Positions 4,046-36,065 of a stretch of DNA of 64,000 bases are shown piece after piece. The DNA comes from an uncultured Acidobacteriota bacterium. GTDB taxonomy: Bacteria > Actinomycetota > Acidimicrobiia > Spongiisociales > ZC4RG35. Within the stretch, counting starts at the first letter, position 1. Every line of letters starts with the position of its first letter. The stretch spans positions 4,577 to 68,576 of the forward strand of contig CAWHEU010000022.1 in assembly GCA_963828465.1 (NCBI GenBank), given 5' to 3'. Position numbers and translations under genes: made by a program. The notes beneath the pieces are model-generated. The model was not told the DNA's origin, did no database searches, and saw only the letters and a program-made list of their open reading frames with translations.

Positions 4046-8772
<4,727 letters not shown>

Positions 8773-8805
8773 CTGACGCGCCCGCGGACGAACCGAGGGA
8801 CCGGG

Positions 8806-20892: not shown

Positions 20893-22398
20893 ATGACCGG
20901 CGCAATGTCGGCACCGAATCCGACATCGCGTCCCAGTGACGCTGTCTTCATCAGCTACACACACGTAGACAACAAGCCGTTCGGCCCCGAGAAGCAACGT
21001 TGGATATCGCTCCTCGACGAGCATCTGAGCGTTCGACTCGAGCAACTTGCACCAGAGCATCACGTGTCGGTGTGGCGGGACGACAAGCTCCAAGGCAACG
21101 ACGTGTTCTCCGAGTCGCTGAAGGAGCGACTGGGGGAGGTAGCAGTGTTGATTTCGGTGTGTTCGCCCAGGTACTTGGTCTCGGAGTGGTGTCAGAGAGA
21201 ACTCAATGAGTTCGTGCAGGCCCAGGCGAAGCGGGGGCTCGAAGTAGGGACGAAGAGTCGGGTATTCAAGGTGATGAAGACACCGGTGCCTCTAGACGAA
21301 CTCCCTCCTCCGCTCGCTCCGCTGTTGGGGTACGAGTTCTATGAGGTATTGCCGGAAGGCGACCACTTTCGAGAATTCCTTCTCAACCCGAATGAGGAGG
21401 CGCGATGGAAGTTCTACGCTCGAGCGGACGATCTCGCCCAGGACATCGCCGATCTGCTCGACGAGTTGGCCGATGAGGCCGTCCGCCCCGAACCGGTCAC
21501 CTCCAGCACCGTGTATCTAGCTGCGACCACATCGGATGTCTCGGAGGGCCGGGACGACCTCAAGCGGGAACTGCAGCGACGCGGCTTCCGGGTATTTCCC
21601 GATCGCGACCTGCCTTTCGTGGCAGACGACCTGTCAGCGGCCATCACTGGCTGGTTGTCCGAGTCGGACTTCTCGATCCATCTCCTCGGTGCCCGGTACG
21701 GCGCCAGGCCAGAGGGTGACGATCGGTCGATTCCCGACCTGCAACTGGAGCTTGCCCGAGGGTTCGCCAACCGACAGGTTCTGACTCAGCTCATCTGCAT
21801 CAACGACGGGCACGAGGTGGTTGAAGAAGAGCAGGTCGAACTCATCGAGAGAGTCGAGACGACGAACGTCGGCCGAGGAGTCGAAGTGGTGAAGGCTCCG
21901 TTCGATAGGTTCAAGGAACATGTCCTGGACACGATGTCTCGGAGCCCGCTGGCGACAAAAGTGGATACCGGAGCAGAGGGTAGGACCGTCTACCTCGCCT
22001 ACGACCGGGTAGACAGCGAGGCAGCTGAAGCGCTGCAGACCTTGATCGAGGATCGGGGGTACAACGTTTTGTCGCCACTCATGGAGGGATCCGAGTCTGA
22101 AGTGCGTGAAGTCCACGAAACATCGATGGTGCTGAGTGACGCAGTGCTGATCTACTACGGCAAATGCACTGAGCACTGGGTGCGAATGCGGCTCTTCGAT
22201 CTCATGAAAGTGCGCGGGTGGGGCAGAACTGAGCCTTACCTGGCTCAAGCCCTGTGGGTCGGTGCTCCCGACACGCCACACAAGGCGAAGGTGCACATCA
22301 CACAGACTCTGCTCCTGAACGGCATGGCCGATCCCGCGCTGACGGCACTCGAGCCATTCCTCGTACGTCTGGAAGGGCGCGACGCGAGCAACGGATGA
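20893..22398 (+). CDS. TIR-domain protein (N-terminal canonical TIR plus two further degenerate TIR-like modules)
   Basis: DAVFISYTHVDNK…WRDDKLQGNDVF…AVLISVCSPRYLVSEWCQRELNEF is a textbook bacterial TIR. Two later blocks beginning TVYLAATTSD… and RTVYLAYDRVDSEAAEALQ… repeat the fold signature. Stop overlaps the next start (ATGA at 22395). Confidence 0.8.
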   Translation: MTGAMSAPNPTSRPSDAVFISYTHVDNKPFGPEKQRWISLLDEHLSVRLEQLAPEHHVSVWRDDKLQGNDVFSESLKERLGEVAVLISVCSPRYLVSEWCQRELNEFVQAQAKRGLEVGTKSRVFKVMKTPVPLDELPPPLAPLLGYEFYEVLPEGDHFREFLLNPNEEARWKFYARADDLAQDIADLLDELADEAVRPEPVTSSTVYLAATTSDVSEGRDDLKRELQRRGFRVFPDRDLPFVADDLSAAITGWLSESDFSIHLLGARYGARPEGDDRSIPDLQLELARGFANRQVLTQLICINDGHEVVEEEQVELIERVETTNVGRGVEVVKAPFDRFKEHVLDTMSRSPLATKVDTGAEGRTVYLAYDRVDSEAAEALQTLIEDRGYNVLSPLMEGSESEVREVHETSMVLSDAVLIYYGKCTEHWVRMRLFDLMKVRGWGRTEPYLAQALWVGAPDTPHKAKVHITQTLLLNGMADPALTALEPFLVRLEGRDASNG

Positions 22399-25300
22399 CG
22401 GCTACGTCCCCACTATTCAATCCCTTCCCCGGTCTTCGGCCGTTTCGCGAGGACGAGACACCTCTCTTCTTCGGCCGAGATGCCCAGATCGACGAGCTCC
22501 TCGCCGAACTGGGTAGGTCCCGATTCGTAGCAGTCATGGGAGCCTCCGGAAGCGGTAAGTCGTCCCTGGTCACCGCAGGGCTTCTGCCCGCGCTCCAGGG
22601 TGGACTCTCACCGCGATTGGGGGCCAATTGGCGCATCGCCAGCTTGCGCCCCGGGGGCGACCCGGTGCGCAACCTGGCCAGGGCCCTCGTCGAACCCGGC
22701 GTCCTCGATCGAGACGGCTCCGATGAGACCAGAGGCGTCGATCAAACGGAGGCGTTGCTCAGACGAAGCGGTCTTGGTCTCGCCGATCTGGCAAGACGTG
22801 ACGAGAGCCTGAGAGACGGCCGCCTACTGGTCGTTGTCGACCAGTTCGAGGAGTTGTTCCGATTTCAGGACGCTGGGGGCAGGGCACACGACGGCGCGGA
22901 CAATCCGGCATTCGTCCGGCTCCTGATCGAGGCTGTCGCCGACGAATCCAACGTGAGTGTGATCTTGACCATGCGATCCGACTACTTGGGGGATTGTTCC
23001 CAGTTCGACCAGCTGCCCGAGACGATCAACCAAGGGCTCTATCTCGTTCCCCGGCTTACACGCACGCAGCTCCGCGGGGCGATCACCGGTCCAGTCGCCG
23101 TCGGGGGCGGAACGATTGCCCCTCGACTTGTGCAACGGCTCCTGAACGACGCCGGCGCGGATCCCGACCAGCTGCCCGTGTTGCAGCACGCCCTGATGAG
23201 GATCTGGGACCTGTGGACTGGGGACGTGACTGCTCCTGGGCCAATCGACCTCGAGCATTACGAGGCTGCCGGCGGACTCGAGGAGGCGCTCGCCCGGCAT
23301 GCCGACGAGGCATATGACGATCTGACCGACGATCGGAGCCGGCGGATCGCGGAGCTTGCCTTCAAGCGCCTCACTGAGCTCGGAAACGATGGTCGCGAGG
23401 GCCGTCACCCGGCCACGTTGGCCGAGATCGCCTCTGTTGCAGATGCCACGGTCGAAGAAACGCGCGAGGTGATCCGTCACTTCGAGCAGCCGGGAAGATC
23501 CTTCGTCATGGTGTCTGATGACGGAGTCGTCGACATCTCCCACGAAAGCCTCATTCGCCAATGGCCGAGACTCCGTGACTGGGTTGGCGAGGAGGCGGCC
23601 TCCCGAGACACGTATCACCGGCTGGCCGAGTCCGCCGGCCGATGGCGTCGAGGTGAGGCTGCTCTCATGCGAGATCCGGATCTGCAGCTAGCTGTGAACT
23701 GGTGGACGGACAACCAGCCGAGCGGTGCCTGGGCCGAGCGGTACGGCTCGACATTCCAGGACGCAGCCGACTACCTGGATCGGAGCCGCAAAGCCGAGAG
23801 AAGCCGGCGGCTTCTGACGTGGTCCGGTGTCGCAGGGCTGGGCGTCCTGGCAGTCCTGTTCGCGGTGTTGGCTGTATGGGCGATAACGGCAGAACAGGAC
23901 GCGAAGTATCAGGAACGTCTTGCTGTCGGAAGGCAACTCTCCGCGGTCTCGACCGAGCACGGACCGGAGCGTCGGACAACCAGCATCCTCACCGCATTGG
24001 AGGCTCTTCGGACTACCGAGACCGACGGACTGCGTCTCCCGGAGGCCGAGGAGGCACTGCGTGCTGCGATGCACGACCCGCTCGGCATCCGACTCCCCGG
24101 CCAGCCGGGTCAGCTCGGCCATGACGAGGATGTGACGACACTGGGTTTCAGTCCCGACGGGAGATGGTTGGCGACGGGTAGCGCTGACGACACGGTGTTG
24201 CTATGGGATCTGGAGGACACGGAAGGGGACCCGCGTCCGTTGCCCGGTCATGCCGACGACGTGGTGGCGTTGGCGTTCAGCCCCGACGCCCGTTGGTTGG
24301 CCACCGGCAGTCTCGACGGCACCGCCATGTTGTGGGACCTGGAAGATGCGGAAGCCAAGCCCCGGATCCTGGACGGCCATACAGATGAGGTGACATCACT
24401 TGCCTTCAGCCCCGATGGCAGCTGGCTTGCCACCGGGAGCGTCGACGAAACCATCCAGCTCCGTGAATTGGACAACCCGGATCTCGTGGCCCGTGTCCTC
24501 CAGAGCGAGGCGGGATTCATCCTCTGCCTGGCCTTCAGCCCTGACGAGAGGTGGCTGGCGGCCGGCACTGGCACCGGCGTCGGGTATCTGTGGGACATGG
24601 GGAATCCCGGCGGCGACCCCGAGACGCTCAGCGGTCACAACGATGCTGTGGTCGCTGTCGCTTTCAGCCGTGACGGTGCTTCGCTGGCCACCGGGAGCAG
24701 GGATGCGACGATCCGGCTATGGGACCCCGACGTTCCGACCAATCCGTTTGCCAGGCTGGAACAAGGCGACGCGGTGCTCGGCCTGGTGCTCAGCTCCGAC
24801 GGGAGATGGCTAGCCACCGGCGGTGAGGACAACGCCGCCCGTGTTTGGGACCTCCAGCGGTTGAGAGGATCCCCTGACCCGTCACTAGTCCTCGTGCACT
24901 CCGGCCCCGTGGAACGGGTCTCCTTCAGTGCTGACAACCGCTGGCTGGCCACCGGTGGTCCTGGTGACCCGGCTCGGCTCTTCCAGGTCAACGACGCGTC
25001 TCTGCCGCCCGTGGTGCTCGCCGGCCCGGTCACGGCCCTCGGGTTCAGCACCGACGACCGATGGCTGGCGATCGGATCGGATCAGGGCTCGGCTCGCCTT
25101 TGGGGGACGGACCAACTCCCAACACAACCGGCAGTGCTCGATCACGACGACAAGGTCTCAGCGATCGAATTTGGCCCGGACGGTCGTGTGGCCACGGGGA
25201 CCACAGCCAATGTCACGCGTCTGTGGAGTCTCGACGACCCTTCGGCTGAGCCCGAAGTGCTAGCGCAAACGGATTTCGGGTTCGATATGGCACAGGTGGA

Positions 25301-26141
25301 AGCGATCGCGTTCAGACCCGACGGACGTATGTTGGCCACCGGCAGCGGTGACATGCGGGTCCGGTTGTGGACGCTGGATCCTTCAGGGTCCCAACTCGTA
25401 TCCGAGGAGCCTCTCGAGGCTGGAATCAATGATCTGGCCTTTAGTGCGGACGGGGACCGGCTTGCTATCGCGGTGAAGGAAGAGGATGTCTTGCTGTGGG
25501 ATGTGGCGGAGCGGTCGTTCGAGCGTCTCGAGGGTCACAGTGCTGAGGTGCGGAGCGTGGCCTTCAGCCCGAACGGACGTTTGCTGGCCACTGGAGACCT
25601 GGACGGGGAGATCCGGGTCTGGAATCTCGAAGATCTGGAGGTTCCTCCGGAGTCTCTGCGCGCCCATGCCGAGCGGGTGACATCGTTGGCCTTCGACGGA
25701 GAGGGACGTCAGCTCGCGTCCGGGAGCTGGGATCAGACCGTCCAGATCTGGGAGGTCGACACGCGGAGCTACATCACGTTGAACACAGATGGTCGGGTCG
25801 ACAATGTAGCCCTTCGACCCGATGGGAAGTTGATTGCAGTGGCAGCCGATCAACCTCATTTATGGGATCTGACCGCCCCCGACCAGAACGACCCGATCGC
25901 CAATCCTGTCATTCTGCGGGACCACACCAGCGTCGTGAACGCGGTTGCATTCAGCGCGGACGGGAGATGGCTCGGTACCGGGAGTGACGATCACTCCGTT
26001 CGTCTCTGGCTCCAACTGGAGGAATTGGCAGAGCTCGGCTGTGCCAGCGCGGGACGGAACCTGAGTCACGACGAGGTGCAGGAAATCAATCCCGGCGCCA
26101 AGAGCGTTAGCACGTGCGAAGAATGGCCCGAGGGGTCTTAG
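22395..26141 (+). CDS. nSTAND-type P-loop NTPase (NACHT-like) with a central TM helix and ~15 C-terminal WD40 repeats
   Basis: PFPGLRPFREDETPLFFGRDAQIDELL…RFVAVMGASGSGKSSLVTAGLLP carries a Walker A motif. Walker B is LLVVVDQFEE. The hydrophobic segment LLTWSGVAGLGVLAVLFAVLAVWAI is a TM helix. Then ~15 repeats of the type GHxDxVxxLAFSPDGRWLATGSxDxTxxLWDL. Confidence 0.85.
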   Translation: MTATSPLFNPFPGLRPFREDETPLFFGRDAQIDELLAELGRSRFVAVMGASGSGKSSLVTAGLLPALQGGLSPRLGANWRIASLRPGGDPVRNLARALVEPGVLDRDGSDETRGVDQTEALLRRSGLGLADLARRDESLRDGRLLVVVDQFEELFRFQDAGGRAHDGADNPAFVRLLIEAVADESNVSVILTMRSDYLGDCSQFDQLPETINQGLYLVPRLTRTQLRGAITGPVAVGGGTIAPRLVQRLLNDAGADPDQLPVLQHALMRIWDLWTGDVTAPGPIDLEHYEAAGGLEEALARHADEAYDDLTDDRSRRIAELAFKRLTELGNDGREGRHPATLAEIASVADATVEETREVIRHFEQPGRSFVMVSDDGVVDISHESLIRQWPRLRDWVGEEAASRDTYHRLAESAGRWRRGEAALMRDPDLQLAVNWWTDNQPSGAWAERYGSTFQDAADYLDRSRKAERSRRLLTWSGVAGLGVLAVLFAVLAVWAITAEQDAKYQERLAVGRQLSAVSTEHGPERRTTSILTALEALRTTETDGLRLPEAEEALRAAMHDPLGIRLPGQPGQLGHDEDVTTLGFSPDGRWLATGSADDTVLLWDLEDTEGDPRPLPGHADDVVALAFSPDARWLATGSLDGTAMLWDLEDAEAKPRILDGHTDEVTSLAFSPDGSWLATGSVDETIQLRELDNPDLVARVLQSEAGFILCLAFSPDERWLAAGTGTGVGYLWDMGNPGGDPETLSGHNDAVVAVAFSRDGASLATGSRDATIRLWDPDVPTNPFARLEQGDAVLGLVLSSDGRWLATGGEDNAARVWDLQRLRGSPDPSLVLVHSGPVERVSFSADNRWLATGGPGDPARLFQVNDASLPPVVLAGPVTALGFSTDDRWLAIGSDQGSARLWGTDQLPTQPAVLDHDDKVSAIEFGPDGRVATGTTANVTRLWSLDDPSAEPEVLAQTDFGFDMAQVEAIAFRPDGRMLATGSGDMRVRLWTLDPSGSQLVSEEPLEAGINDLAFSADGDRLAIAVKEEDVLLWDVAERSFERLEGHSAEVRSVAFSPNGRLLATGDLDGEIRVWNLEDLEVPPESLRAHAERVTSLAFDGEGRQLASGSWDQTVQIWEVDTRSYITLNTDGRVDNVALRPDGKLIAVAADQPHLWDLTAPDQNDPIANPVILRDHTSVVNAVAFSADGRWLGTGSDDHSVRLWLQLEELAELGCASAGRNLSHDEVQEINPGAKSVSTCEEWPEGS
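24100..26010 (+). repeat. ~15 tandem WD40 repeat units (coding repeats) forming two beta-propellers
   Basis: The recurrent peptide AFSPDGRWLATGS…RLWDL is visible ~15 times, including the degenerate units at ~25142 and ~25860. Confidence 0.8.
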
Positions 26142-26151
26142 GCGCGGTCGC

Positions 26152-27213
26152 TCAGGACGGCGGGGGGGAGATCAGGGTCACTACTGCCAAGAACTCGCCG
26201 TCGTTGTTGGTGACGCCGATGTCGTTGATCCCGAGGTAGAGACGACCGTCGGATTCGACGGTCGTCTGGAACTCACTGCCCACTTCGAACGGGACCCCAT
26301 TCTCTCCGATTTTTCCGATGAGCCCGGCATGATTGGCATCCTCGACCCCGGGCAGATTGGATTCGTGTCCCGGAAGGTTGGGGTCACCATCAGGAGTGAG
26401 CAGCGGGCCGTTCTCGGAGTGCTTTATCCGGCCGCCGGCTTCGATGTCGAGTGTGACTCCCGTGACGACATCGATACCGGAGTCCGTCCACAACACCGTG
26501 CCGGGCACCCGGACAGTCTGAGTTTTCGATGGCTCGGCATCGCATGCCTGAAATCCACCGACAAACTCTCCAAGCGGCGGAGCATCCGGGTCCAGCCGCG
26601 CCTCCTCGAACCACGCATTGAATTCTTGGGTGGGAACGCATATCGCGGGCCCCGGGGCCTGGCCTTTGGTCAGAAACGCGGCCTCGGTATAGGTTCCCTC
26701 CCTTGCCTCGTAGGTCTGGGAAAGACCCTCGGAGGTGAGCTCGATCGACCCCTTCTTGACCACGACACACGTGTTCTCAGTCGGCGGCTGACAAGCCGTG
26801 AACACCGTGGCGGGCTCCAATGCCGTGATGGTCGAGCTCGACGTTTCCAGTGTCAGACGGGTGTCGCTCACTTCGTCGTCGGTGAAGGTGACATGACCGC
26901 CGCCGAGGTACGCCCTCGCTTCCGCCGGTTCCCAGCTCTCGAGTTGGATGGCCGCCTGCCTGGACAACTCGAATCTGCCCAGGTCTCGGATCGTGAGGAG
27001 CCCACTGGCGCCGGGCCCCAACGTGATCTGGTTTCCCAGATCGATCGATTCACCGTCCCCGGTGCCGATCTCGGTTTCGCTCACCGAAATAGGGCCCTTA
27101 TAGACAACCAGATCTGCCTGCATGGGCGGTGTGACTTCATCTCCTCCGCAGGCAGCTAAGGCGAGGGTGATGAGCGTGATAGCCAGTCCCCCCCGAGACT
27201 TCCGTCGCAACAT
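26152..27213 (-). CDS. secreted lipoprotein with a beta-rich C-terminal domain, function unknown
   Basis: MLRRKSRGGLAITLITLALAACGGDE gives a lipobox LAAC. The Gly/Thr/Asp-rich C-terminus looks like a beta-sandwich. The ORF extends to 27258. Confidence 0.65.
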   Translation of the reverse strand: MLRRKSRGGLAITLITLALAACGGDEVTPPMQADLVVYKGPISVSETEIGTGDGESIDLGNQITLGPGASGLLTIRDLGRFELSRQAAIQLESWEPAEARAYLGGGHVTFTDDEVSDTRLTLETSSSTITALEPATVFTACQPPTENTCVVVKKGSIELTSEGLSQTYEAREGTYTEAAFLTKGQAPGPAICVPTQEFNAWFEEARLDPDAPPLGEFVGGFQACDAEPSKTQTVRVPGTVLWTDSGIDVVTGVTLDIEAGGRIKHSENGPLLTPDGDPNLPGHESNLPGVEDANHAGLIGKIGENGVPFEVGSEFQTTVESDGRLYLGINDIGVTNNDGEFLAVVTLISPPPS

Positions 27214-27395
27214 GCTCCCTCCAGTCCGGTCAACTCTATCCGAGGTCTGGTGGCCCAACAGGGCGAGAACCGCATATGGGCCACCATCCCGAAAGGAGCG
27301 GGTTGGAGCGGCGCTGATACGAGGATCGGGCCGCCCACGACGGCCGTCTCCGGTTAGCCCAGCCGCGTAGGCTCGGCCGTCGAAAGGGGGACTCG

Positions 27396-28344
27396 ATGGC
27401 CCATGTGACTTTCGTTCACGGAATCATGAATCAGCCTTCGCCCGCACGTCTGCTCAGGGAGTGGAAGCGGGACTTGGCCGACGGTGGGGACGGAGTGGAT
27501 CTCGATGTGTACGGCGTGACGTCATCGATGGTGTACTGGGCGGACGTCATGTATGCCGCCGCCACCGACGCCGGGGGCAGCCTCTCACGAGTCGATCGAG
27601 TACGAGGGCATCGAGTCGGGCGCCCTCACCGAGGTCGACGAGTCGTACATCGCCGAAGCGAGCGGGGACGAGAAGGACTTCATCGAGTCGATGATCGCCA
27701 ACTACGACCTCGACCATCCCGACGTGCCGGCAGCCGAGGCCGCTCCGGACGCGGGGGCAGAGGCCAGGGTGGCGGCGGCGTCGGCGTTGGAGGCAATACC
27801 TCTGCCGTGGTTCGTCAAGCGGCCGCTGATGCGGCTGCTGTTGCGTGACGTCCACCACTATCTCTTCAACACCAGTCATTCGCCTCGAACCGGGTCCAGC
27901 TACAAGGTCCGCGATGAGGTGAGGAAGCGGTTCGGCGCCGACCTCGGGGCCGTCGACGGTGGGCCCCATGTCGTAGTTGCGCACAGCCTCGGCTCGGTGA
28001 TCGCGTATGACTGTCTCAAACGGGTTGCCGGCACCAAGAAAGTGGACCTGCTGATCACGATCGGCACGCCGCTCGGCATGTCCGAGGTCCAGCACAACTT
28101 GAAGCCAGAGTGGTCGAAGGACGACGGCTACCCCGGAGAACTGCCGCGCTGGGTGAACGTGGTCGATCGTCTCGACCCGGTTTGTGTGGCCGACCCGATC
28201 ATCGCCAACGACTACATGCGGAAGAAGGCAGGCGTGGTGGTCGACGAGGTCGTGTCCAACGGCGGGGTGATGCGCCATCCGTCCGGCAAGTACTTCCGAC
28301 AGGCGGTCGTTCAGGATGCGGTGCGCAATGGATTGGGTGTCTGA
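27396..28344 (+). CDS. alpha/beta-hydrolase fold (lipase/esterase-like, GxSxG = AHSLGS); 1-nt frameshift in a G5 run near 27580
   Basis: N-terminus VTFVHGIMNQP, the nucleophile elbow VVVAHSLGSVIAYDCL and LLITIGTPLG are in two frames. These join at gccGGGGGcagc (27575-27586). RBS aaagggggac before the ATG. Confidence 0.7.
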
Positions 28345-28353
28345 GGGAGCCGG

Positions 28354-29919
28354 ATGTCGTTCTTCGACTCGCCACTTGGTGAGCAGCTCCGCTCCAGCCT
28401 CGATGCGGGGAAACCAGAGGACATCGCCGCCGCGGTAGGGGTGGTCAAGGGGAAGGTGTGGTCGGGGACAGTGCAGCCCGATCAGGTCGACGAGGTCCTC
28501 GCAGAACTGCAGCGACAACGACAGGTTCAGCACGTCATCGACATCGCCGATGCGGCCACCGCGGTCGGCTCGATCACGACGTCGGGCCGTCGCCGCTACT
28601 GCCAGATGCTGATCGAGTCGGGAGCCCTCCATGCCGGCGAGCTCGCCTGCGCAGAGCTTCTCGATCTGGCCGAGGATGCGAAGGAGCGGGGGGAGGCACT
28701 GGGGCTGCTCGGGCGGATCCGCAAGCAGCGTTACGTGACCAGCCGCCGGCCCGAGGATTTGATCGGCGCAATTGCCGCCTATCAGTTCGCATACGCGGGA
28801 GGCGGCGACCCGCTCTGGCATGGCATCAATCTCCTCGCACTCACCACCCGGGCCCATCGTGACGGAATCCTCGTTCCCCAACCGGTCGACACGGACGCTC
28901 TGACACGCACGCTCCTCGACGTAGTCAGGCAGACGGCACCCGAGTTGCAAGAGATCTGGGAGCGCACCACCGAGGTCGAGGCCCTGGTCGCCCTGGGCGA
29001 CAAGGCGTCGGTGGACGAAGCGGTGTCGGTGGCACAGAAACTCGCCAGCAGCAAGAGTGTCCGGCCGTTTGAGCTGGAGAGCCTTCGCCGTCAGCTGGCC
29101 GACATCTGGGAACTCGAGCCGCATCACCCGGTGCTGGTGGCCATCGCAGCGCAGAAGCTCCAACTCGGGGCCAGGGCCCATGTCGAGCTGCCCGATTCCG
29201 CGGGCCAGTTGGAGAAGATCTTCGGGACGGCCCTGCCTGTGGGGTACAAGCACCTGATGAGGGGTCTCGAGTGCGCAGAATCGGTGGGAAAGATCACCGA
29301 CGCATCCGAAGAGCCGTGGGGCACGGGATTCCTCCTACGCGGGAATCTGATCCATCCCGACTTCGGCGATGGACTGGTGCTGGCTACCAACGCCCACGTC
29401 TGTAGTCCAGAGCCCGGAGTGGGCAAGCTGCTGCCGAGCGAGGCGAAGGCTGTCTTCGACGTGACCAAGTCGGTCGATGGGGAGCAACTCGTCCTCACCG
29501 GCTTCGAGTGCCTGTGGAGCTCACCACCCTCGGTATGCGATGTCACCATCCTTCGCTTCACCGGACCCGAGCCGGCGCTCAAAGGCCAGCTCGACGTCGC
29601 CGCGTTGCCCCAGCCAGTGACGGAGGGCGCATATGTCTATGTCATCGGCCATCCGGCGGGGGGTGGGATCAAGTTTTCGATCAGGGGCAACGACCTTCTC
29701 GCCTATGACGCCGACATGTTCAAAGTCCACTACACCGCCCCCACCGAAGGGGGCAGCTCCGGGAGCCCGGTCTTCAACCAGGCATGGCAGCTGATGGCTG
29801 TTCATCACGCTGGAGATTCGAAGATGCACCGACTGGACGACCCTTCCGCTACGTATCAGGCCAACGAGGGGATCACGATCAAGGGGATCAGAGAGGAGTA
29901 CTCCAAGAATGGAAAATGA
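28354..29919 (+). CDS. N-terminal alpha-helical (TPR-like) domain fused to a C-terminal trypsin-like serine protease
   Basis: Catalytic triad context: LATNAHV (His), YDAD (Asp), GGSSGSPVF (Ser) in the C-terminal ~220 aa. The N-terminal ~300 aa is helical. No signal peptide. Confidence 0.8.
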   Translation: MSFFDSPLGEQLRSSLDAGKPEDIAAAVGVVKGKVWSGTVQPDQVDEVLAELQRQRQVQHVIDIADAATAVGSITTSGRRRYCQMLIESGALHAGELACAELLDLAEDAKERGEALGLLGRIRKQRYVTSRRPEDLIGAIAAYQFAYAGGGDPLWHGINLLALTTRAHRDGILVPQPVDTDALTRTLLDVVRQTAPELQEIWERTTEVEALVALGDKASVDEAVSVAQKLASSKSVRPFELESLRRQLADIWELEPHHPVLVAIAAQKLQLGARAHVELPDSAGQLEKIFGTALPVGYKHLMRGLECAESVGKITDASEEPWGTGFLLRGNLIHPDFGDGLVLATNAHVCSPEPGVGKLLPSEAKAVFDVTKSVDGEQLVLTGFECLWSSPPSVCDVTILRFTGPEPALKGQLDVAALPQPVTEGAYVYVIGHPAGGGIKFSIRGNDLLAYDADMFKVHYTAPTEGGSSGSPVFNQAWQLMAVHHAGDSKMHRLDDPSATYQANEGITIKGIREEYSKNGK

Positions 29920-30721
29920 CGCAATCCCTCCGGAGTTCCTGGAGCCCGAGGGCGACGCCGAGCGCCAGGATCCCGACCTCGTCTTCGAGACGACGTCAGC
30001 GACACTACGGGGGCTGTGGAATGACTGGATGTGCAAACGAGGTGACGGGACTTTCGTCGACGTCGAATTCTTCGGCCGCCGGATCGGCGGAGTGCCGACC
30101 CCGGCGGTCGACGCCTATCGGGCGCTCGAGGTAGCCCTGCGCTCCGCCGGTTACAAGCCAGATTCGCGGTGGGCGTACAACTGCAGGCTCATCGAGGGGA
30201 CGGACAAGCCCTCGCTGCACTCGGCCGGGATCGCAGTTGACATCGACCCGGACGAGAACCCGTTCTCGAAGGGTGACCCCTTCGCCGGGAAGATGGGTCC
30301 CGACCATGTCGCCGCGGCGCTGGCCATTCGCAACAGCGCCGGCGCCCGGGTGTGGTCCTGGGGCGGGCATTGGAACAAGCCCGATCGGATGCACTTCCAG
30401 CTCGACAGGGGGCCTGCGGCGGTGGATGTGGATTGGCGAACCGTCCCCGGTGGTGGCCCCGAAAGCGCCAGTTCGGGGTCAATGGACGTGAAGGAGGAAG
30501 AGATGGTTCTGTCCAAGAGCATGAAAGGCCCAGCAGTGGAGCGGTTCCAGCAGTGCCTGCTCGATTGGAATGCCAAGGCGCTGCCGAAGGACGGAGCCGA
30601 TGGTGTTTTTGGGAGCGAGACCGTCGAATGGGTGGGGCGGTTCCAGGAGGCCCTTGGTCTGGAGAAGACCGGAGTGATCGACGGGGTGACCGCGGCCTTG
30701 CTGGTCGCCCACGGGAAGTAA
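29909..30721 (+). CDS. M15 family (VanY/D-Ala-D-Ala carboxypeptidase-like) zinc peptidase with a C-terminal peptidoglycan-binding (PG_binding_1) domain; no signal peptide
   Basis: SLHSAGIAVDID (H…D zinc ligands) and GGHWNKPDRMHFQ (His). C-terminal GPAVERFQQCLLDWN…DGVFGSETVEWVGRFQEALGL matches the PG-binding fold. 11-nt overlap with the upstream stop. Confidence 0.8.
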   Translation: MENDAIPPEFLEPEGDAERQDPDLVFETTSATLRGLWNDWMCKRGDGTFVDVEFFGRRIGGVPTPAVDAYRALEVALRSAGYKPDSRWAYNCRLIEGTDKPSLHSAGIAVDIDPDENPFSKGDPFAGKMGPDHVAAALAIRNSAGARVWSWGGHWNKPDRMHFQLDRGPAAVDVDWRTVPGGGPESASSGSMDVKEEEMVLSKSMKGPAVERFQQCLLDWNAKALPKDGADGVFGSETVEWVGRFQEALGLEKTGVIDGVTAALLVAHGK

Positions 30722-30727
30722 CAAGCC

Positions 30728-32245
30728 ATCAAGGTCTTCCTGAGCTACCGGCGGGACGACACGGCGGGGCGCGCCGGAAGGCTCCACGACGCCCTGGCCT
30801 CGAGTTTCGGCACCCGCAACGTGTTCATGGACGTTTCCGCCATCGCGGTCGGCACCGACTTCGTCGACCAGGTGGAACGAGCGATCTCGACGAGCGACGC
30901 CTCGCTGGTGGTGATGGGGCCGAATTGGCTCGGGGCCACTGACCCCGAAGGCCGTCGGCGGCTCGACGATCCCCAGGACCACGTGAGGTCTGAGGTGCGC
31001 TCCGCGCTGGCCTCACCCAACCCGGTGGTTCCGGTGCTGGTCGGGGATGCATCGTTGCCGACCGAGGACCAACTGCCTGACGATCTGAAAGCCCTGGCGC
31101 GCCGACAAGCCGTGGAATTGCGGGACGAGACATGGTCTGAAGATGTCGAGATGCTGGTCCGGCGTCTCGAAGGCAAGGAGACGGTCCGGGAACCCCGCCG
31201 CTGGATTCTGCTGGCCATTGGCTTGATACTCCTGGGTGGCGTCGGCGCCGCTATCTGGATGGCTCAGGCAGGCGGCGAGGATGAGTTGACCCAATGCTCG
31301 GTGCCGGACGAGACATGGACCACGATCGACGTGGAACCCGGCGCCACGGACGTCGAACAATTGGAGCGGGATCGGGCACTCCGCTACACGGTGGTGAGTA
31401 CGGATTTCAGGGATGAACCCGGGGACGAGTGGTACGTCGTGCTCCATGTGAGGCTGGAGAACGAGTCCACGGACGTGGCGGGAAACGACGACCACACCGG
31501 GTACGGACCGTCGATCTTCGACGCCCTGCACGTCGATGAGATCTCGGTCGGGGGCCCTTACTGCTTTGGCGAGAACAGTGGTGACAGCGATCTCGCCCCG
31601 GGGGAGGCGGCCAACGCACGGGTTGGATTCCTCTCCGTACCTGGACCCCACCGAGGCAAGTCTGATGCTCGAGACCGATGGGCCCCTCTTTATCGAGATC
31701 ACCCCGGGCGCGTGATGCCGACGGTCCTGTTCTCGGGCCACATGGTCGATGCACCAGACCGGCCGTCTCCACGCTTCCCACCCGAGCGTGTTCCCCTGGT
31801 GCGGCGGGCGATCGCGGAAGCCGTCTGGCTCATCGATGACACCGACGCGGAGGCGATCTCGGGACTCGCCTGCGGGGGCGATCTCCTCTTCGCCGAGGAA
31901 TGGCTGAAGACCGGGCGGCCCTTGCACGCCTATCTGCCACGTGAAGAGGCGGATTTTCTCGACGAGTCGGTTCGTTTTGCCGGCTCGGAGTGGGTGGACT
32001 CGTTCCGTGAAGTGACCGCTGATCCGAACCTGGTCCTGATCGGTCCGGACCAAGAGATGCTTGGTTTGAACGAACCGCACACCGCGAACAACCTCCGCAT
32101 GCTCGAAGCTGCGTTGCTGCGGCCCGGCGCCCTCAACGGTCTGTTCCTTTGGGACGGCAAGGGAGGCGACGGTCCGGGAGGCACCGAGCACCTGGCCTCT
32201 GAGGTGGTCGAGCAGGGCGGGAGTGTCACCGTTCTCCGTCCGTAG
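30728..32245 (+). CDS. TIR domain – TM helix – C-terminal Rossmann-like (LOG/SLOG-like) domain protein; non-canonical start (ATC where ATG is expected)
   Basis: (I/M)KVFLSYRRDDTAGRAGRLHDALASSFGTRNVFMDVSAIAVGTDF…ASLVVMGPNWL is a canonical TIR. TM helix RRWILLAIGLILLGGVGAAIWMA. The C-terminus has ISGLACGGDLLFAEEWL … LFLWDGKGGDGPGGTEHL, reminiscent of LOG/SLOG Rossmann domains. The reading frame is open only from the TAA of the upstream gene (30719-30721). The first in-frame ATG (30830) lies inside the TIR domain. Confidence 0.65.
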   Translation: MKVFLSYRRDDTAGRAGRLHDALASSFGTRNVFMDVSAIAVGTDFVDQVERAISTSDASLVVMGPNWLGATDPEGRRRLDDPQDHVRSEVRSALASPNPVVPVLVGDASLPTEDQLPDDLKALARRQAVELRDETWSEDVEMLVRRLEGKETVREPRRWILLAIGLILLGGVGAAIWMAQAGGEDELTQCSVPDETWTTIDVEPGATDVEQLERDRALRYTVVSTDFRDEPGDEWYVVLHVRLENESTDVAGNDDHTGYGPSIFDALHVDEISVGGPYCFGENSGDSDLAPGEAANARVGFLSVPGPHRGKSDARDRWAPLYRDHPGRVMPTVLFSGHMVDAPDRPSPRFPPERVPLVRRAIAEAVWLIDDTDAEAISGLACGGDLLFAEEWLKTGRPLHAYLPREEADFLDESVRFAGSEWVDSFREVTADPNLVLIGPDQEMLGLNEPHTANNLRMLEAALLRPGALNGLFLWDGKGGDGPGGTEHLASEVVEQGGSVTVLRP

Positions 32246-33145: not shown

Positions 33146-36065
33146 CTAGGACCGGTCCTCGATGGCCTCCGGGGGCTCGATCCACTGCAATACCGTTCGG
33201 TAGTCGGCGGCGGCCCCTTCGGCGATCAGGCGGTCCCGCTCCGGTGGAAGGAGACCACCCTCGACCTCTTCACGGAATCGGGCCATTTCGTCCGGACTGG
33301 CCCCGACCCGGTTCCGCTCGACGCTGCCGAGAAACCGGGCGGCTGCAGACAGGTCACCTTCCGCCAGAGCAAGACGGAGGGCCTGTGCCGGGATCCCGGC
33401 CTGGACCTCTCGATCGAAGAGGAGGAGACGGTGGGCGGCCGATGTGAGCTCGACCCTGGCCGCCGCGAGACGTCCTTCATCGATGTGGCTGCGGATCGCA
33501 CGGGCGCCCGATCGGGCGGAGCAGGGCAGATCACCCACTTCGGCCAAGATCCCGGCTGCCTCGGCCAGATCGTCGGTTGAGGCCCCCAGTCCGAGATCCT
33601 GGGTCACCGCCCCGTGGTAGTAGAGGGCATGGCCCAACCCGTGACGGGATCCCAGATCACTCAGGATCTCGATGCTCTGGCGCAAGTTGGCCAGGACCCA
33701 CTCATCGTGACCGGATCCGATGTGGCTGGCCGAGGTCATCATCGATGCCGCGGCCAGATATCCGTCGCCGACCGTCAGCGCCTTCGAGATCGCGGCTTCG
33801 ACATGCTCCCGCCGCTGTTCCGGAGGACCGGCCTGCCCGAAGGCGAGCATGAACTCGATGATCGCCTGATCCCATTCCGGGTCCCACATCGGCGGGTGCC
33901 GGACATTCGCCAGAATCTGACGACCCTCCTCCATCCAGCCGCCCGCGTCCTGATGACCGACGAGGTTGGAATAGGCCATCCCGCGGGTCAGCGTGAGCCA
34001 CCCGACGAGCGCGTCGTCCCCGGCGCTCCGGGCACATTCGAGACCCAGATCTGCATAGTTCACCGCGGCCGGGTCGGTGAGGAAGGTCGCCAGCAGAGAA
34101 GCGGCCAGCCACGCCCTGGCGGCCATGGCGGGCGAGGCTTCGTCGCCATGTGATCGGAGCGCTCCCACCAACAGGTCCCGGCCTTCGACCTGGAGACTGG
34201 ATTGGGCCCAGAACCAGGTCAGATCGAATCCGATGTCGAGGAATCGGTCGATCTCCCCACGGCCGAGCAACGTGGACATGGCAACGCGGATGTTGTCGTT
34301 CTCCAAACAGGAGACTGCGGTTGGCCTGACGCTGGTCGGGACCGCGCAAGCTCGGGGCGATCTGCGCCACTGCGTTGGCGTAGTGAATGGCGTGGAGGAG
34401 CCGTACTTCGTCTTCCTCTCCTTCATCGGCCAGACGGGCCTGTCCGTATTGGCGGATCGGCTCGAGGAGTCGGAAGCGAGAAAAGCGAGCTTGCTGGATA
34501 GGCACCACGAGCGACTTGTCCACCAGCTGATCGAGCAAACCGAAGACATCGGTGGTGTCTCCGACGTTCTCAGCAGCAGGGAGATCGAACCCGCCGGCGA
34601 AGACCGAAAGACGTCGGAAAAGCGCCGACTCTTCCTCGCTGAGCAGGTCGTAGGACCAGCCGATCGTGTTCTCGAGGGTTCGCTGCCGGCGCACCGTCGT
34701 CTTCGAGGCTGCGGTGAGGACCCGGAACGACGTCTCGAGCTGGTCGGCGAGGTCGAGGAGGGTGAGAGTGCGGACCCGTGCCGCGGCCAGCTCGATGCCG
34801 AGAGGAATCCCGTCGAGACGACGGCAGATCCTGGCGATGGCTTCCAGGTCGGCGTGCGAAGGGGCGAGATCCGGCTTCATCCTGGCGGCCCGGTCGAGGA
34901 AGAGACGCACCGACTCCGATCGCGCCAGGTCCGATCCCTCTCCGGGCAGGCCAAGCGACGAGACCCGGAACACGATCTCGGCGGAGGTCCCGAGCGTCTC
35001 CCGTGATGTGGCCAGGATCGACAGGCCGGGGCTGGATCCGAGCATTTCTACCGCGATCGCCGCAGCCTCTTCGAGGAGGTGCTCACAGTTGTCCAGCAGC
35101 AATAGGAGCTTTCTTCGGGCTAGGTGAGCCTTGATCACCTGGATCAGGCCCATCCCGTCGCCGGCGCGCAGGCCCCAGACGTCGGCCACCTCATTCACGA
35201 CCAGGGCCGGATCTGCGATGTCGGCCAGCCCGGCCATCCAAACGCCATCAGGGAAGTCGTCTCCGAGGGCTCCGGCTACTTCCATGGCGAGACGGGTCTT
35301 GCCGGTCCCACCAACCCCGGTGAGGGTTACCAGCCTGTTGGACTGGAGCAGGGCCTTTACTTCCTCGAGGTCCTCGCGCCTCCCTACAAACGAGGTGAGT
35401 TGCGCCGGGAGATGAACCAGGTCGACCGGCTCGGTGCGCAGTGGCTCGGTTACCTCGGGCAGATCGGGATGGAGCAGCTCGAAGAGGCGCTCCGGGCGTT
35501 CCAGGTCCCTGAGAGGATGGACCCCTCGGTCCTGCAACTCCATGGGGGCTTCAACCAATTCTGCGGTCAGCTCAGCAGTGGCTCCCGACACCAGAATTTG
35601 CCCACCGTTCGCCGCTGCCATCACGCGGGCCGCCCTGTTCACATCGGGCCCGAAGTAATCGCCGGCCCGTTCGTACGAAGTGCCGGTATGGACCCCAATC
35701 CTGACGCGGATCGCCGGCCCTTCCCAAGCTTCGTCCAGAAGACCGAGCTGGGCCCGCATTGCGGCGCCAAGCGCGGCCAACGGCGTGGTGAAGGCGGCGG
35801 CAAAAGAATCCCCGGCGCTGGAGAAGACGTACCCATCGAGGTCAGCGATGGCGGATTCGAGAATGCGGTCGTGGGCGATCAGGCTCGCCGCCATGCCGTC
35901 ACGGTCCGCTTCCCAAAGACGGGTCGAACCGGCCACGTCGCTGAACAGGAACGAGACCGTGCCGGTGGGCCTGGAGTCCACCGTCGGAGGGTATCGGGGT
36001 CCCACGCGGGCCGCTAAGACGTCGGGTTCTACCGCGTCGGCAGGAACCAGTAGACGTAGCCGCAC
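33146..36065 (-). CDS. class III adenylate cyclase – NB-ARC/AAA ATPase – TPR STAND-family protein (paralog 1); frameshift near 34306-34328
   Basis: TGTVSFLFSDVAGSTRLWE…GDSFAAAF (cyclase). TLTGVGGTGKTRLA (P-loop). LLLLDNCEHL (Walker B). TPR-like C-terminus. The last ~390 aa are in another frame (33146..34549). Confidence 0.8.

What the first reader, a model, noticed from the sequence alone, without database searches (positions are those of the whole stretch)
29909..30721. Cytoplasmic (leaderless) M15 peptidoglycan peptidase with PG-binding domain inside the island
VanY/M15 zinc-peptidase motifs (SxHxxGxAxD, HW/MH) plus a PG_binding_1 repeat, but no signal peptide or lipobox. A cell-wall hydrolase retained in the cytoplasm fits an abortive-infection lysis effector or a toxin delivered by another route, rather than housekeeping wall remodelling.
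Basis: partly seen in the sequence, partly recalled or inferred. Interest (0 to 1): 0.5.

Follow-up and report, generated by a model that had tools for sequence, protein, structure and literature searches.

The report
Endolysin-like wall peptidase in conflict operon
This is an intact cell-wall peptidase built like a phage endolysin, with no export signal, that in about thirty Acidimicrobiia species sits beside a sensor-protease, a lipase-like enzyme and TIR/SLOG signalling genes, so it is probably the wall-breaking part of a cell-suicide (anti-phage) module, though nothing here shows lysis directly.

Summary
ORF 29909-30721(+) encodes a 270-aa protein with Peptidase_M15_4 and PG_binding_1 domains. 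All zinc and catalytic residues are invariant, and no Sec, TAT or lipobox signal exists or can be gained by moving the start. A missing signal peptide is not odd in itself: this is the standard phage endolysin architecture. The nearest outgroups (42-48% identity) are phage or viral-contig lysins followed by small holin-like membrane genes.

Two things are distinctive. First, a conserved acidic extension of about 27 aa (IPxEFLDPEGDAExQDP) is absent from the phage relatives. Second, the gene context is conserved. In 31 of 35 loci with at least 50% identity (three of the four exceptions are cut contigs), the gene lies within 3.5 kb of a TPR-S- or EAD1-fused trypsin-like protease. A lipase-like α/β-hydrolase usually accompanies it, in at least four gene arrangements. 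A TIR-membrane protein, a SLOG-fold protein and nSTAND1-WD40 are often present too. No phage genes are nearby. The gene has been deleted at least twice, leaving remnants.

Best reading (about 0.55): a domesticated endolysin acting as the lytic effector of an Aravind-type conflict or cell-death module. The release and activation steps are inferred, not shown. Novelty: a new variant of a known kind. Interest is moderate.

The parts
29909..30721 (+). Gene for the 270-aa leaderless M15 zinc peptidase with a PG_binding_1 domain (stop TAA 30719-30721). A Shine-Dalgarno-like GAGGAG lies 11 nt upstream. The ATG overlaps the upstream protease gene's stop by 11 nt (ATGGAAAATGA).
29909..29989 (+). Acidic N-terminal extension specific to this family (residues 1-27, MENDAIPPEFLEPEGDAERQDPDLVFE; consensus IPxEFLDPEGDAExQDP). 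It is absent from phage-type relatives, which start at the equivalent of residue 29. It is predicted disordered (pLDDT below 50 for residues 1-26) yet is under purifying selection.
29993..30433 (+). M15 (LAS-fold) catalytic domain, residues about 29-175. Zinc motif SLHSAGIAVD at 30212-30241. Catalytic and zinc motif DRMH at 30383-30394. The near-invariant Cys42 and Cys92 are both replaced in P0068, the one relative that lacks them.
30506..30718 (+). C-terminal PG_binding_1 domain, residues about 200-270. It follows a low-confidence linker (residues 176-199).
28354..29919 (+). Conserved partner: a cytoplasmic TPR-S plus Trypsin_2 serine protease of 521 aa. Candidate catalytic-triad residues sit in the motifs NAHV, DVTIL and GSSGSP. 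It has no membrane segment or signal peptide.
27396..28344 (+). Conserved partner: a lipase-like α/β-hydrolase (HG oxyanion motif, AHSLGS nucleophile elbow). In this window it is split by a 1-nt frameshift near 27575 (frames starting at 27396 and 27553). It is intact at 315 aa in L001 and L007.
30728..32245 (+). Downstream partner: TIR_2 domain, one membrane helix (protein residues about 161-183), a predicted β-rich middle segment, then a SLOG domain. The probable start is a non-canonical ATC at 30728. The first canonical start, GTG 30821, would truncate the TIR domain.
31715..32245 (+). SLOG-fold unit of 176 aa (motifs FSGHMVDAPDR..PRFP, ACGGDLLF, GDGPGGT). It is a separate gene in most relatives and is fused in frame here.
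22254..26141 (+). nSTAND1 NTPase plus WD40 repeats (probable start ATG 22395, overlapping the upstream stop). It recurs next to the operon in L013, L081, L086 and L087.
20893..22398 (+). TIR_2 plus DUF4062 protein upstream of the STAND gene. It recurs in L013 and L086.
26152..27258 (-). Lipoprotein-like protein of unknown function (lipobox LAAC). It lies between the STAND gene and the operon. It recurs in L081 and L087 only.

Best explanation
The gene encodes an active, cytoplasmically synthesised M15 zinc peptidase that cuts peptidoglycan stem peptides and carries a C-terminal peptidoglycan-binding domain. In effect it is an endolysin. It descends from, or shares recent ancestry with, actinophage endolysins. 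It has since become a fixed but dispensable component of an Acidimicrobiia conflict or programmed-cell-death module. That module comprises a lipase-like α/β-hydrolase, a TPR-S- (or EAD1-) fused trypsin-like protease, the M15-PGB protein, and usually a TIR-membrane protein and a SLOG-fold protein, often next to nSTAND1-WD40.

Proposed mechanism (inferred). The enzyme is made together with the protease, by translational coupling, and stays harmless because the membrane separates it from the wall. The acidic 27-aa N-terminal extension may also keep it latent. When the module is triggered, the membrane barrier is breached. Candidates for that step are the lipase-like hydrolase, the TIR-membrane protein, or the small two-helix membrane protein found in the EAD1-type operons. 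The protease may also remove the N-terminal extension. The peptidase then degrades the sacculus and the cell lyses, aborting an infection or removing a damaged cell.

Shown: enzyme identity, intact active site, absence of a signal, phage affinity, conserved linkage, dispensability. Inferred: the trigger, the release route, proteolytic activation, and lysis as the outcome.

For: Leaderless. N-termini are acidic and lack a hydrophobic region in about 75 family clusters. No upstream extension is possible.

Endolysin affinity. The best PHROG hits are endolysin families 1512 and 2649. The best annotated phage hits are endolysins or lysin A proteins with the same domain order. P0076 (47% identity) lies on a RecT/RusA/YqaJ phage contig followed by a 46-aa single-helix membrane gene. 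The best IMG/VR relative (48% identity, aligned from residue 29) follows a tail-fibre-like gene and precedes a 62-aa holin-like ORF, scored with one hydrophobic segment and read by eye as having two. Most of the 224 representatives at E<=1e-30 start the domain at residue 2-5.

Linkage. 31 of 35 non-duplicate loci at >=50% identity have the trypsin-like gene within 3.5 kb, and 27 have the hydrolase within 5 kb. Arrangements are co-directional and overlapping, convergent, divergent, or 2-3 kb apart. Linkage that survives rearrangement argues for functional coupling.

Precedent. EAD1-linked lysozyme and papain-like peptidoglycan peptidase effectors occur in trypsin-containing systems (PMC7159879 section 32).

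Dispensable. There were two independent deletions, one seen in two loci with identical junctions (L075, L076; 5' remnant) and one in L084 (3' remnant).

Not a prophage. No phage genes or tRNA lie nearby, and the α/β-hydrolase has no phage relatives.
Against: No experiment or direct computational evidence shows lysis, activation by the protease, or an anti-phage role.

The protein carries no recognised effector-associated adaptor domain (no EAD1 hit) and has no PADLOC match.

No small holin-like ORF lies in the window's operon. The only membrane protein there is the TIR protein.

One locus at 65% identity (L022) and the 40%-identity relatives (L036, L038, L040, in an rpsP-rimM-trmD-rplS-lepB region) lack an adjacent protease. 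At least L022, L036 and L038 still keep the acidic N-terminal motif, so the extension's function cannot depend strictly on a neighbouring protease gene.

The near-invariant Cys42/Cys92 pair could be a disulfide. That would fit an enzyme meant to work outside the cytoplasm by some export route.
Confidence: 0.55

Rival explanations
1. The enzyme is exported by a non-classical route and acts outside the producer. Possible routes are cargo of a contractile injection system, another dedicated machine using the acidic N-terminal peptide as its signal, or release from a lysing subpopulation. It would then serve as an antibacterial toxin against neighbours or as a wall-remodelling enzyme.
For: The conserved, disordered N-terminal extension is under purifying selection, and this is the kind of feature used as a packaging or secretion signal (my own knowledge of eCIS cargo signals). 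In L003 the gene lies next to a BTAD regulator and a complete eCIS cluster with sheath, tube, baseplate and PAAR genes. The co-varying Cys42/Cys92 pair could be a disulfide typical of extracytoplasmic proteins. The N-terminal motif persists in loci without a protease.
Against: The injection-system neighbourhood occurs in one locus only; the sister locus L005 has the same EAD1-trypsin context without it. No injection-system, T7SS or other secretion genes were identified in the window, though only part of it was annotated. The motif is found on no other protein in any fetched locus (81 of 81 hits are M15 genes), so there is no sign of a shared secretion leader. No immunity gene is evident.
Confidence: 0.15
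2. The enzyme never leaves the cytoplasm. It attacks cytoplasmic peptidoglycan precursors (UDP-MurNAc-peptides, or lipid II on the inner leaflet), as VanX- and VanY-type M15 enzymes do. As an effector it would stop wall synthesis without any need for export.
Against: A PG_binding_1 domain and the domain swapping seen in relatives (LysM in P0069, SH3b in P0073 and P0226) are hallmarks of enzymes that dock on the polymerised wall. The closest sequence relatives are phage lysins. No van-type or precursor-pathway genes are nearby.
Confidence: 0.1
3. It is a host lysis enzyme used to release something. This could be injection-system or tailocin particles, public goods or DNA, as in tailocin and GTA lysis cassettes. 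It would not be an immune effector.
For: It has endolysin architecture and phage ancestry. It lies next to an eCIS cluster in L003. A small two-helix membrane protein sits in the EAD1-type operon.
Against: Most loci, including the window, have nothing obvious to release. The constant partners are TPR-S/EAD1 proteases, TIR, SLOG and STAND-WD40 genes, which are typical of conflict systems.
Confidence: 0.08
4. It is a cytoplasmic muropeptide sensor or processor. The M15-PGB protein would bind or trim wall fragments that enter the cytoplasm when the wall is damaged, and feed that signal to the protease, TIR or STAND machinery. This would be analogous to NOD1/NOD2 or PGRP sensing.
For: It is a leaderless protein with a peptidoglycan-binding domain, embedded among NLR-like (nSTAND1-WD40) and TIR genes. 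The TIR protein has a membrane helix and a predicted extracytoplasmic segment, which suggests envelope surveillance.
Against: All catalytic residues are invariant, and a pure sensor would not need them. The module persists without the gene, which suits an optional effector better than the sensor. No precedent was found in the papers searched.
Confidence: 0.05
5. It is a decaying remnant of a prophage lysis cassette that happens to lie next to defence genes.
For: The architecture is endolysin-like and the nearest outgroups are phage-borne. This window's assembly contains frameshifted neighbours.
Against: The ORF is intact and under purifying selection in about 30 species. The same non-phage neighbours are conserved through rearrangements. 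No phage genes, integrase or tRNA are in the window. No member of the acidic-N-terminus subfamily lies on an IMG/VR viral contig.
Confidence: 0.03

Closest known systems
Holin-dependent phage endolysins with an M15 peptidase and a PG_binding_1 wall-binding domain. Examples are lysin A of Mycobacterium phage Benedict (gene 7), the Bacillus phage Eldridge endolysin, and PHROG families 1512 and 2649.
   Same: Both lack a signal peptide. Both have an N-terminal M15 zinc peptidase and a C-terminal PG_binding_1 in the same order. Uncultured phage and viral-contig relatives reach 42-48% identity and are followed by small membrane (holin-like) genes.
   Different: This gene is not in a phage or prophage, and the window has no adjacent holin-like ORF. 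It carries an extra conserved acidic extension of about 27 aa. It is translationally coupled to a TPR-S trypsin-like protease and linked to a lipase-like hydrolase, TIR and SLOG.
EAD1-linked peptidoglycan-degrading effectors (lysozyme-like and papain-like peptidases) in the trypsin-containing conflict systems of multicellular bacteria. Source: Kaur, Burroughs, Iyer and Aravind 2020, eLife, PMC7159879, 'System 3'.
   Same: A wall-degrading enzyme is encoded with trypsin-like proteases that carry conflict-system adaptor or sensor modules. EAD1-trypsin is the direct neighbour in L003, L005, L006 and L033 (and a weaker match in L039), and TPR-S-trypsin elsewhere. STAND NTPases lie nearby.
   Different: The catalytic family differs (M15, not lysozyme or NlpC/P60). 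The effector has no EAD1 domain. No NucA endonuclease core is present. The hosts are Acidimicrobiia rather than mainly alphaproteobacteria. The constant partners are a lipase-like hydrolase, TIR and SLOG.
Thoeris (ThsB TIR plus ThsA SLOG effector) and the BcTir/BcTpr pair of Bacillus cereus (a TIR protein plus a protein with an N-terminal NAD+ glycosidase domain and a C-terminal TPR domain; bioRxiv 10.1101/2023.05.26.542521).
   Different: Here SLOG is a stand-alone 176-aa protein or is fused to the TIR-membrane protein. It is not fused to SIR2, membrane or TPR effector parts. TPR-S is fused to a protease. No PADLOC Thoeris call covers the system. The M15 enzyme has no counterpart in Thoeris.
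Protease-activated peptidoglycan hydrolase zymogens, for example Clostridioides difficile pro-SleC (activated by the Csp subtilisin; PDB 9h68).
   Different: SleC is a lytic transglycosylase acting in the spore cortex, and its activation is shown experimentally. Here cleavage of the acidic extension is only a hypothesis.
VanX/VanY/LdcB-type M15 D,D- and L,D-peptidases.
   Different: No van operon or recycling genes are nearby. This protein has a wall-binding domain. The sequence relatives are phage lysins rather than resistance or recycling enzymes.

Membership tests
Peptidase family M15 (LAS-fold zinc peptidoglycan peptidases; Pfam Peptidase_M15_4) | Profile match above the curated threshold | tested here: met
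   PF13539, E 1.5e-11, 45.2 bits against a cutoff of 25, covering profile positions 2-70 of 70
Peptidase family M15 (LAS-fold zinc peptidoglycan peptidases; Pfam Peptidase_M15_4) | Zinc ligands H-x6-D plus a distal His, with a catalytic Asp in a DxxH motif | tested here: met
   H104, D111, D159 and H162 are present and invariant in 28 relatives
Peptidase family M15 (LAS-fold zinc peptidoglycan peptidases; Pfam Peptidase_M15_4) | LAS fold | tested here: met
   [not shown]
Peptidase family M15 (LAS-fold zinc peptidoglycan peptidases; Pfam Peptidase_M15_4) | Hydrolysis of a defined stem-peptide bond | not testable with these tools
   Bond specificity (L-Ala-D-Glu or D-Ala-D-Ala, for example) cannot be read from the sequence. 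The nearest annotated phage domains are labelled 'L-Ala-D-Glu peptidase', but that is annotation only
PG_binding_1 peptidoglycan-binding domain | Profile match above threshold and the three-helix fold | tested here: met
   [not shown]
Canonical holin-dependent phage endolysin | No signal peptide, and a modular catalytic plus wall-binding architecture | tested here: met
   same domain order as phage endolysins
Canonical holin-dependent phage endolysin | Encoded in a phage or prophage lysis cassette next to a holin | tested here: not met
   No phage genes or tRNA are in the 64-kb window, and no small membrane ORF is in the operon. No subfamily member lies on an IMG/VR contig. So it works like an endolysin but is not a phage endolysin.
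Effector of Aravind-type NTP-dependent conflict systems (Kaur et al. 2020) | Conserved gene neighbourhood with STAND, TPR-S or EAD-bearing components | tested here: met
   31 of 35 loci have a TPR-S- or EAD1-trypsin gene within 3.5 kb. nSTAND1-WD40 is adjacent in the window, L013, L081, L086 and L087
Effector of Aravind-type NTP-dependent conflict systems (Kaur et al. 2020) | Effector-associated adaptor domain (EAD or Death-like) on the effector itself | tested here: not met
   No EAD1 or other Pfam hit on residues 1-44, even at E<=1. The N-terminus is a short disordered acidic peptide
Effector of Aravind-type NTP-dependent conflict systems (Kaur et al. 2020) | Effector slot is variable or dispensable | tested here: met
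   Independent deletions of the gene leave 5' or 3' remnants in L075, L076 and L084. Replacement by a different effector was not seen.
Thoeris | ThsB-type TIR protein plus a ThsA whose SLOG domain is fused to a SIR2 or membrane effector | tested here: not met
   TIR is present (PADLOC ThsB1 E 8e-8, partial) and a SLOG fold is present. But the SLOG unit is stand-alone or fused to the TIR-membrane protein, with no SIR2
Housekeeping secreted L,D- or D,D-carboxypeptidase (LdcB/DacB type) | Signal peptide or membrane anchor, and broad single-copy distribution | tested here: not met
   No signal or anchor. 59 loci in one pattern-based scan of 185,579 species genomes, nearly all Acidimicrobiia for the close family. 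The gene has been lost repeatedly

The most novel reading that the evidence does not exclude
A host-encoded, holin-free self-lysis programme. A membrane-anchored TIR protein and a SLOG protein generate or read a nucleotide signal. That signal switches on a TPR-S trypsin-like protease. The protease then unleashes two latent cytoplasmic enzymes: a lipase-like hydrolase that opens the membrane, and a domesticated endolysin whose acidic 27-residue pro-peptide it removes. The cell is then dismantled from the inside, membrane first and wall second. This would be a new effector logic for TIR/STAND immunity and a clear case of a phage lysis enzyme turned against phages.
Probability: 0.25. Interest if true: 0.7.

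Novelty: new variant of a known kind. Interest (0 to 1): 0.45.

Why it matters
Known bacterial immune effectors mostly destroy NAD+, nucleic acids or membranes. Wall-degrading effectors have been predicted from genome context (Kaur et al. 2020) but I found no experimental study of one among the papers searched. This family offers a compact, testable case. It is a phage-derived endolysin kept by the host and tied through evolution to a sensor-protease, a lipase-like enzyme and TIR/SLOG signalling genes.

If the model holds, it shows how a cell can carry a lethal wall hydrolase safely, by compartment and possibly by a pro-peptide, and fire it on demand without a holin. It would also add an M15 enzyme and a new short acidic N-terminal module to the list of conflict-system parts. 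If it does not hold, the gene is still a well-defined new subfamily of leaderless M15 hydrolases in a poorly studied class (Acidimicrobiia).

Tried and rejected
- **Start-site correction or a hidden signal.** Rejected. ATG 29909 is the first start after the in-frame stop. Residues 5-27 are conserved at protein level. All family N-termini are acidic. The three 'hydrophobic' variants are frameshifted calls.
- **Read-through fusion of M15 to the TIR protein.** In the window a single TAA separates two in-frame ORFs and no canonical start precedes KVFLSY. Rejected because in L008, L011, L004 and L018 the TIR frame is shifted relative to the M15 stop, while an ATC or TTG codon sits at the same position two codons before VFLSY.
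- **The lipase-like hydrolase as a LysB-type phage esterase, making a LysA/LysB pair.** Rejected: no phage or PHROG match.
- **PDB sequence search for the M15 protein.** Nothing beyond weak PG-binding hits. Foldseek on the whole model was dominated by the PG-binding domain.
- **PADLOC.** No hit for the M15 protein.
- **Profile search of the SLOG unit against PDB sequences.** Noise only. The fold search was needed.
- **Shared N-terminal leader on other proteins.** None found.
- **Testing whether other effectors replace M15 downstream of the protease.** The metagenome scan returned mainly close relatives, so the question stays open apart from the deletion variants.
- **Literature searches for M15 or endolysin-like immune effectors.** No description of this module was found.
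Full report
**1. What is in the sequence**

Its ATG is the first possible start after the upstream in-frame stop. A GAGGAG box lies 11 nt upstream. The ATG overlaps the stop of the preceding gene by 11 nt (ATGGAAAATGA), and the same 11-nt overlap is seen wherever gene coordinates are available, in L001 and L004.

Pfam gives Peptidase_M15_4 (residues 97-165, E 1.5e-11, 45 bits against a cutoff of 25). It also gives one PG_binding_1 domain (residues 207-265, E 2.3e-9, 38 bits against 23). The motifs SLHSAGIAVD and DRMH are present, and H104, D111, D159 and H162 are invariant across 28 relatives.

Codon-position GC (0.67/0.48/0.80) and dN/dS of 0.11-0.32 against 19 orthologues show a real gene under selection.

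**2. No export signal**

The N-terminus, MENDAIPPEFLEPEGDAERQDPDLVFE, has net charge -8 in the first 35 residues. It has no hydrophobic stretch, twin-arginine motif or lipobox. All roughly 75 full-length family clusters look the same, with net charge -5 to -14. Three database entries with other N-termini are frameshifted gene calls. SignalP was not available, so this is a heuristic result. It is backed by the impossibility of any upstream extension.

**3. A missing signal is normal for this architecture**

PHROG matches are all endolysin families (1512 at E 9e-12, 2649 at E 4e-11). The best annotated phage hits are endolysins or lysin A proteins with the same M15 then PG_binding_1 order, such as Bacillus phage Eldridge and Mycobacterium phage Benedict, at 28-30% identity.

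An exhaustive profile search of 1.84 billion representative proteins found 224 relatives at E<=1e-30. In most of them the domain begins at residue 2-5, so they too have no room for a signal. Several carry collagen-like tails typical of phage proteins.

Two outgroups could be placed in context:
- P0076 (47% identity) lies on a contig with SLT, YqaJ, RecT and RusA and is followed by a 46-aa single-helix membrane gene.
- The best IMG/VR relative (L093, 48% identity) follows a tail-fibre-like gene and precedes a 62-aa holin-like ORF, which the hydropathy scan scored with one hydrophobic segment and which by eye has two.

Both alignments start at residue 29 of the window protein, as does the 42%-identity alignment to P0212. 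The family is therefore sister to phage endolysins. It differs by a conserved acidic extension of about 27 residues (consensus IPxEFLDPEGDAExQDP). That extension is predicted disordered yet is under purifying selection: dN/dS over the first 45 residues is 0.08-0.37 in all but two comparisons, one of which (a very close pair with almost no synonymous change) gave 0.58 and one was undefined. In all fetched loci the motif occurs only on M15 genes (81 of 81 hits).

**4. The context is the real finding**

The window and its relatives are Acidimicrobiia metagenome-assembled genomes, mostly from soil. Among 35 non-duplicate loci with at least 50% identity:
- 31 have a trypsin-like protease gene within 3.5 kb.
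- 27 have a lipase-like α/β-hydrolase (HG and AHSLGS motifs; weak LCAT, PGAP1 and lipase matches) within 5 kb.
- 20 have the TIR or SLOG genes within 3.5 kb.

Three of the four loci without a protease are cut at a contig end. Only L022 is a true exception.

The linkage survives rearrangement:
- hydrolase, protease, M15 co-directional and overlapping (the window, L001, L004, L007-L019);
- M15 convergent with protease and hydrolase (L002, L024, L027, L028, L030-L032, L035);
- divergent (L034);
- separated by 2-3 kb (L026, L029);
- divergent from an operon of EAD1-trypsin, a 415-aa membrane protein (its N-terminal EAD1 match is not significant, E 0.1), a related hydrolase and a 77-aa two-helix membrane protein (L003 and L005; only the EAD1-trypsin gene is seen in L006, L033 and L039).

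The protease carries TPR-S or EAD1, modules defined in Aravind-type conflict systems.

Upstream lie TIR-DUF4062 and nSTAND1-WD40. This pair recurs beside the operon in L013 and L086, and nSTAND1-WD40 also recurs in L081 and L087.

The window has no phage genes, tRNA, integrase or GC anomaly. It is a cluster of conflict genes, not a compositional island.

**5. Dispensability**

In the metagenome loci L075 and L076 the protease gene is followed by about 110 nt of degenerate M15 5' sequence and then the SLOG gene. In L084 only the M15 3' end remains (IDGVTAALL...). The gene has therefore been deleted at least twice from an otherwise intact operon. This fits an optional, potentially dangerous effector and argues against a housekeeping role.

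**6. Mechanism**

*Shown:* an intact peptidoglycan peptidase with a wall-binding domain is made in the cytoplasm together with a protease. It is evolutionarily tied to that protease, a lipase-like enzyme and TIR/SLOG/STAND genes.

*Inferred:* like an endolysin, the enzyme is harmless until the membrane barrier fails. The module supplies candidates for that step: the lipase-like hydrolase, the TIR-membrane protein, and the 77-aa two-helix protein of EAD1-type operons. The protease may also remove the acidic extension, which ends at a conserved acidic residue just where phage homologues begin. The outcome would be lysis of an infected or damaged cell.

Precedents are the EAD1-linked lysozyme and papain-like peptidoglycan peptidases predicted by Kaur et al. 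(PMC7159879), TIR plus SLOG signalling in Thoeris and BcTir/BcTpr, and protease-activated SleC. I put this reading at about 0.55.

**7. Cautions and rivals**

- The protein has no recognised adaptor domain and no PADLOC hit.
- The window operon has no small holin-like ORF.
- Relatives at 40% identity in another actinomycete lineage sit in an rpsP-rimM-trmD-rplS-lepB region, and L022 sits among secreted proteins. Neither has an adjacent protease. L022 and two of the three 40%-identity loci (L036, L038) visibly keep the acidic motif; the gene call in the third (L040) starts further downstream.
- Cys42 and Cys92 are nearly invariant, and both are replaced in P0068, the one relative that lacks them. 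A disulfide would suit an extracytoplasmic working site. In one locus (L003) the gene adjoins a complete contractile-injection-system cluster.

Export by a non-classical route (0.15), attack on cytoplasmic precursors (0.10), lysis for release of particles (0.08), muropeptide sensing (0.05) and prophage remnant (0.03) therefore remain, in that order.

**8. Verdict**

The enzyme is an ordinary type. The conserved module around it and its acidic N-terminal extension were not described in the papers I could search. I rate it a new variant of a known kind, of moderate interest (0.45).

Noticed in passing
window 30719-30830: The TIR gene has no ATG, GTG or TTG before its conserved KVFLSY strand. It lies in the same frame as the M15 gene, after a single TAA. 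Across relatives an ATC (window, L001, L007-L011) or a TTG (L004, L014, L015, L018, L021) sits two codons before VFLSY, while the frame relative to the M15 stop varies. This points to a non-canonical ATC start or coupled re-initiation, not read-through. It may keep TIR expression low.
   Followed up: yes
window 27396-28344 (near 27575): The lipase-like α/β-hydrolase gene is split between two frames by a 1-nt indel in this window. It is a single 315-aa ORF in L001 and in L007 (about 95% protein identity over this gene). This is either an assembly error or a recent pseudogene.
   Followed up: partly
window 31142-32245; L001, L004, L007, L009: The TIR-membrane protein and the 176-aa SLOG unit form one continuous ORF here and in L009. 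They are separate or frame-shifted genes in most relatives, and SLOG homologues are mostly stand-alone 176-aa proteins. A fusion would place SLOG after a membrane helix and a predicted extracytoplasmic segment, which is topologically odd. An internal start at ATG 31715 or an assembly indel is likely.
   Followed up: partly
[not shown]
   Followed up: partly
L075:1600-1800, L076:1470-1660, L084:6520-6700: In these loci the M15 gene has been deleted from the operon, leaving a degenerate 5' remnant (L075, L076) or a 3' remnant (L084) between the protease and SLOG genes.
   Followed up: yes
L003:11188-20894: One family member lies directly beside a BTAD regulator and a complete extracellular contractile-injection-system cluster (Pvc16_N, sheath, tube, gp19-like, Phage_base_V spike/baseplate protein, PAAR, gp25). 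Its sister locus L005 lacks that cluster.
   Followed up: partly
L003:6262-6495 (- strand); L005:6325-6558: A 77-aa protein with two membrane helices (holin-like topology) ends the EAD1-trypsin operon that faces the M15 gene. The same operon has a 415-aa protein with a weak, non-significant N-terminal EAD1 match (E 0.1), one membrane helix and a predicted outside domain.
   Followed up: partly
L036, L038, L040 (about 7950-8800): Relatives at 40% identity in another actinomycete lineage sit between rpsP/rimM and trmD/rplS/lepB with no adjacent protease. L036 and L038 keep an acidic N-terminal motif (MDPDGAERSDPEV); the L040 gene call starts further downstream and does not show it.
   Followed up: partly
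window 33146-36065 (- strand): An adenylate-cyclase/STAND (NB-ARC-like) gene appears split into two overlapping ORFs (33702-36065 and 33146-34549). This suggests another frameshift in the assembly.
   Followed up: no
window 33.7-36.1, 37.6-38.6, 39.8-41.0, 43.7-46.9 and 60.6-63.3 kb: The window is unusually rich in signalling proteins: four adenylate/guanylate-cyclase-domain genes, two of them fused to STAND/NB-ARC ATPases (one also with TPR repeats), plus a separate STAND-TPR protein. It also has a cNMP-binding MFS transporter (48.8-50.5 kb) and an HD-GerE regulator (50.9-52.5 kb).
   Followed up: no
proteins P0216, P0220, P0230 (from the representatives search): Leaderless M15 plus PG_binding_1 relatives carry C-terminal collagen-like GPxGPxG repeats. 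These may be virion-associated lysins of uncultured actinophages.
   Followed up: no
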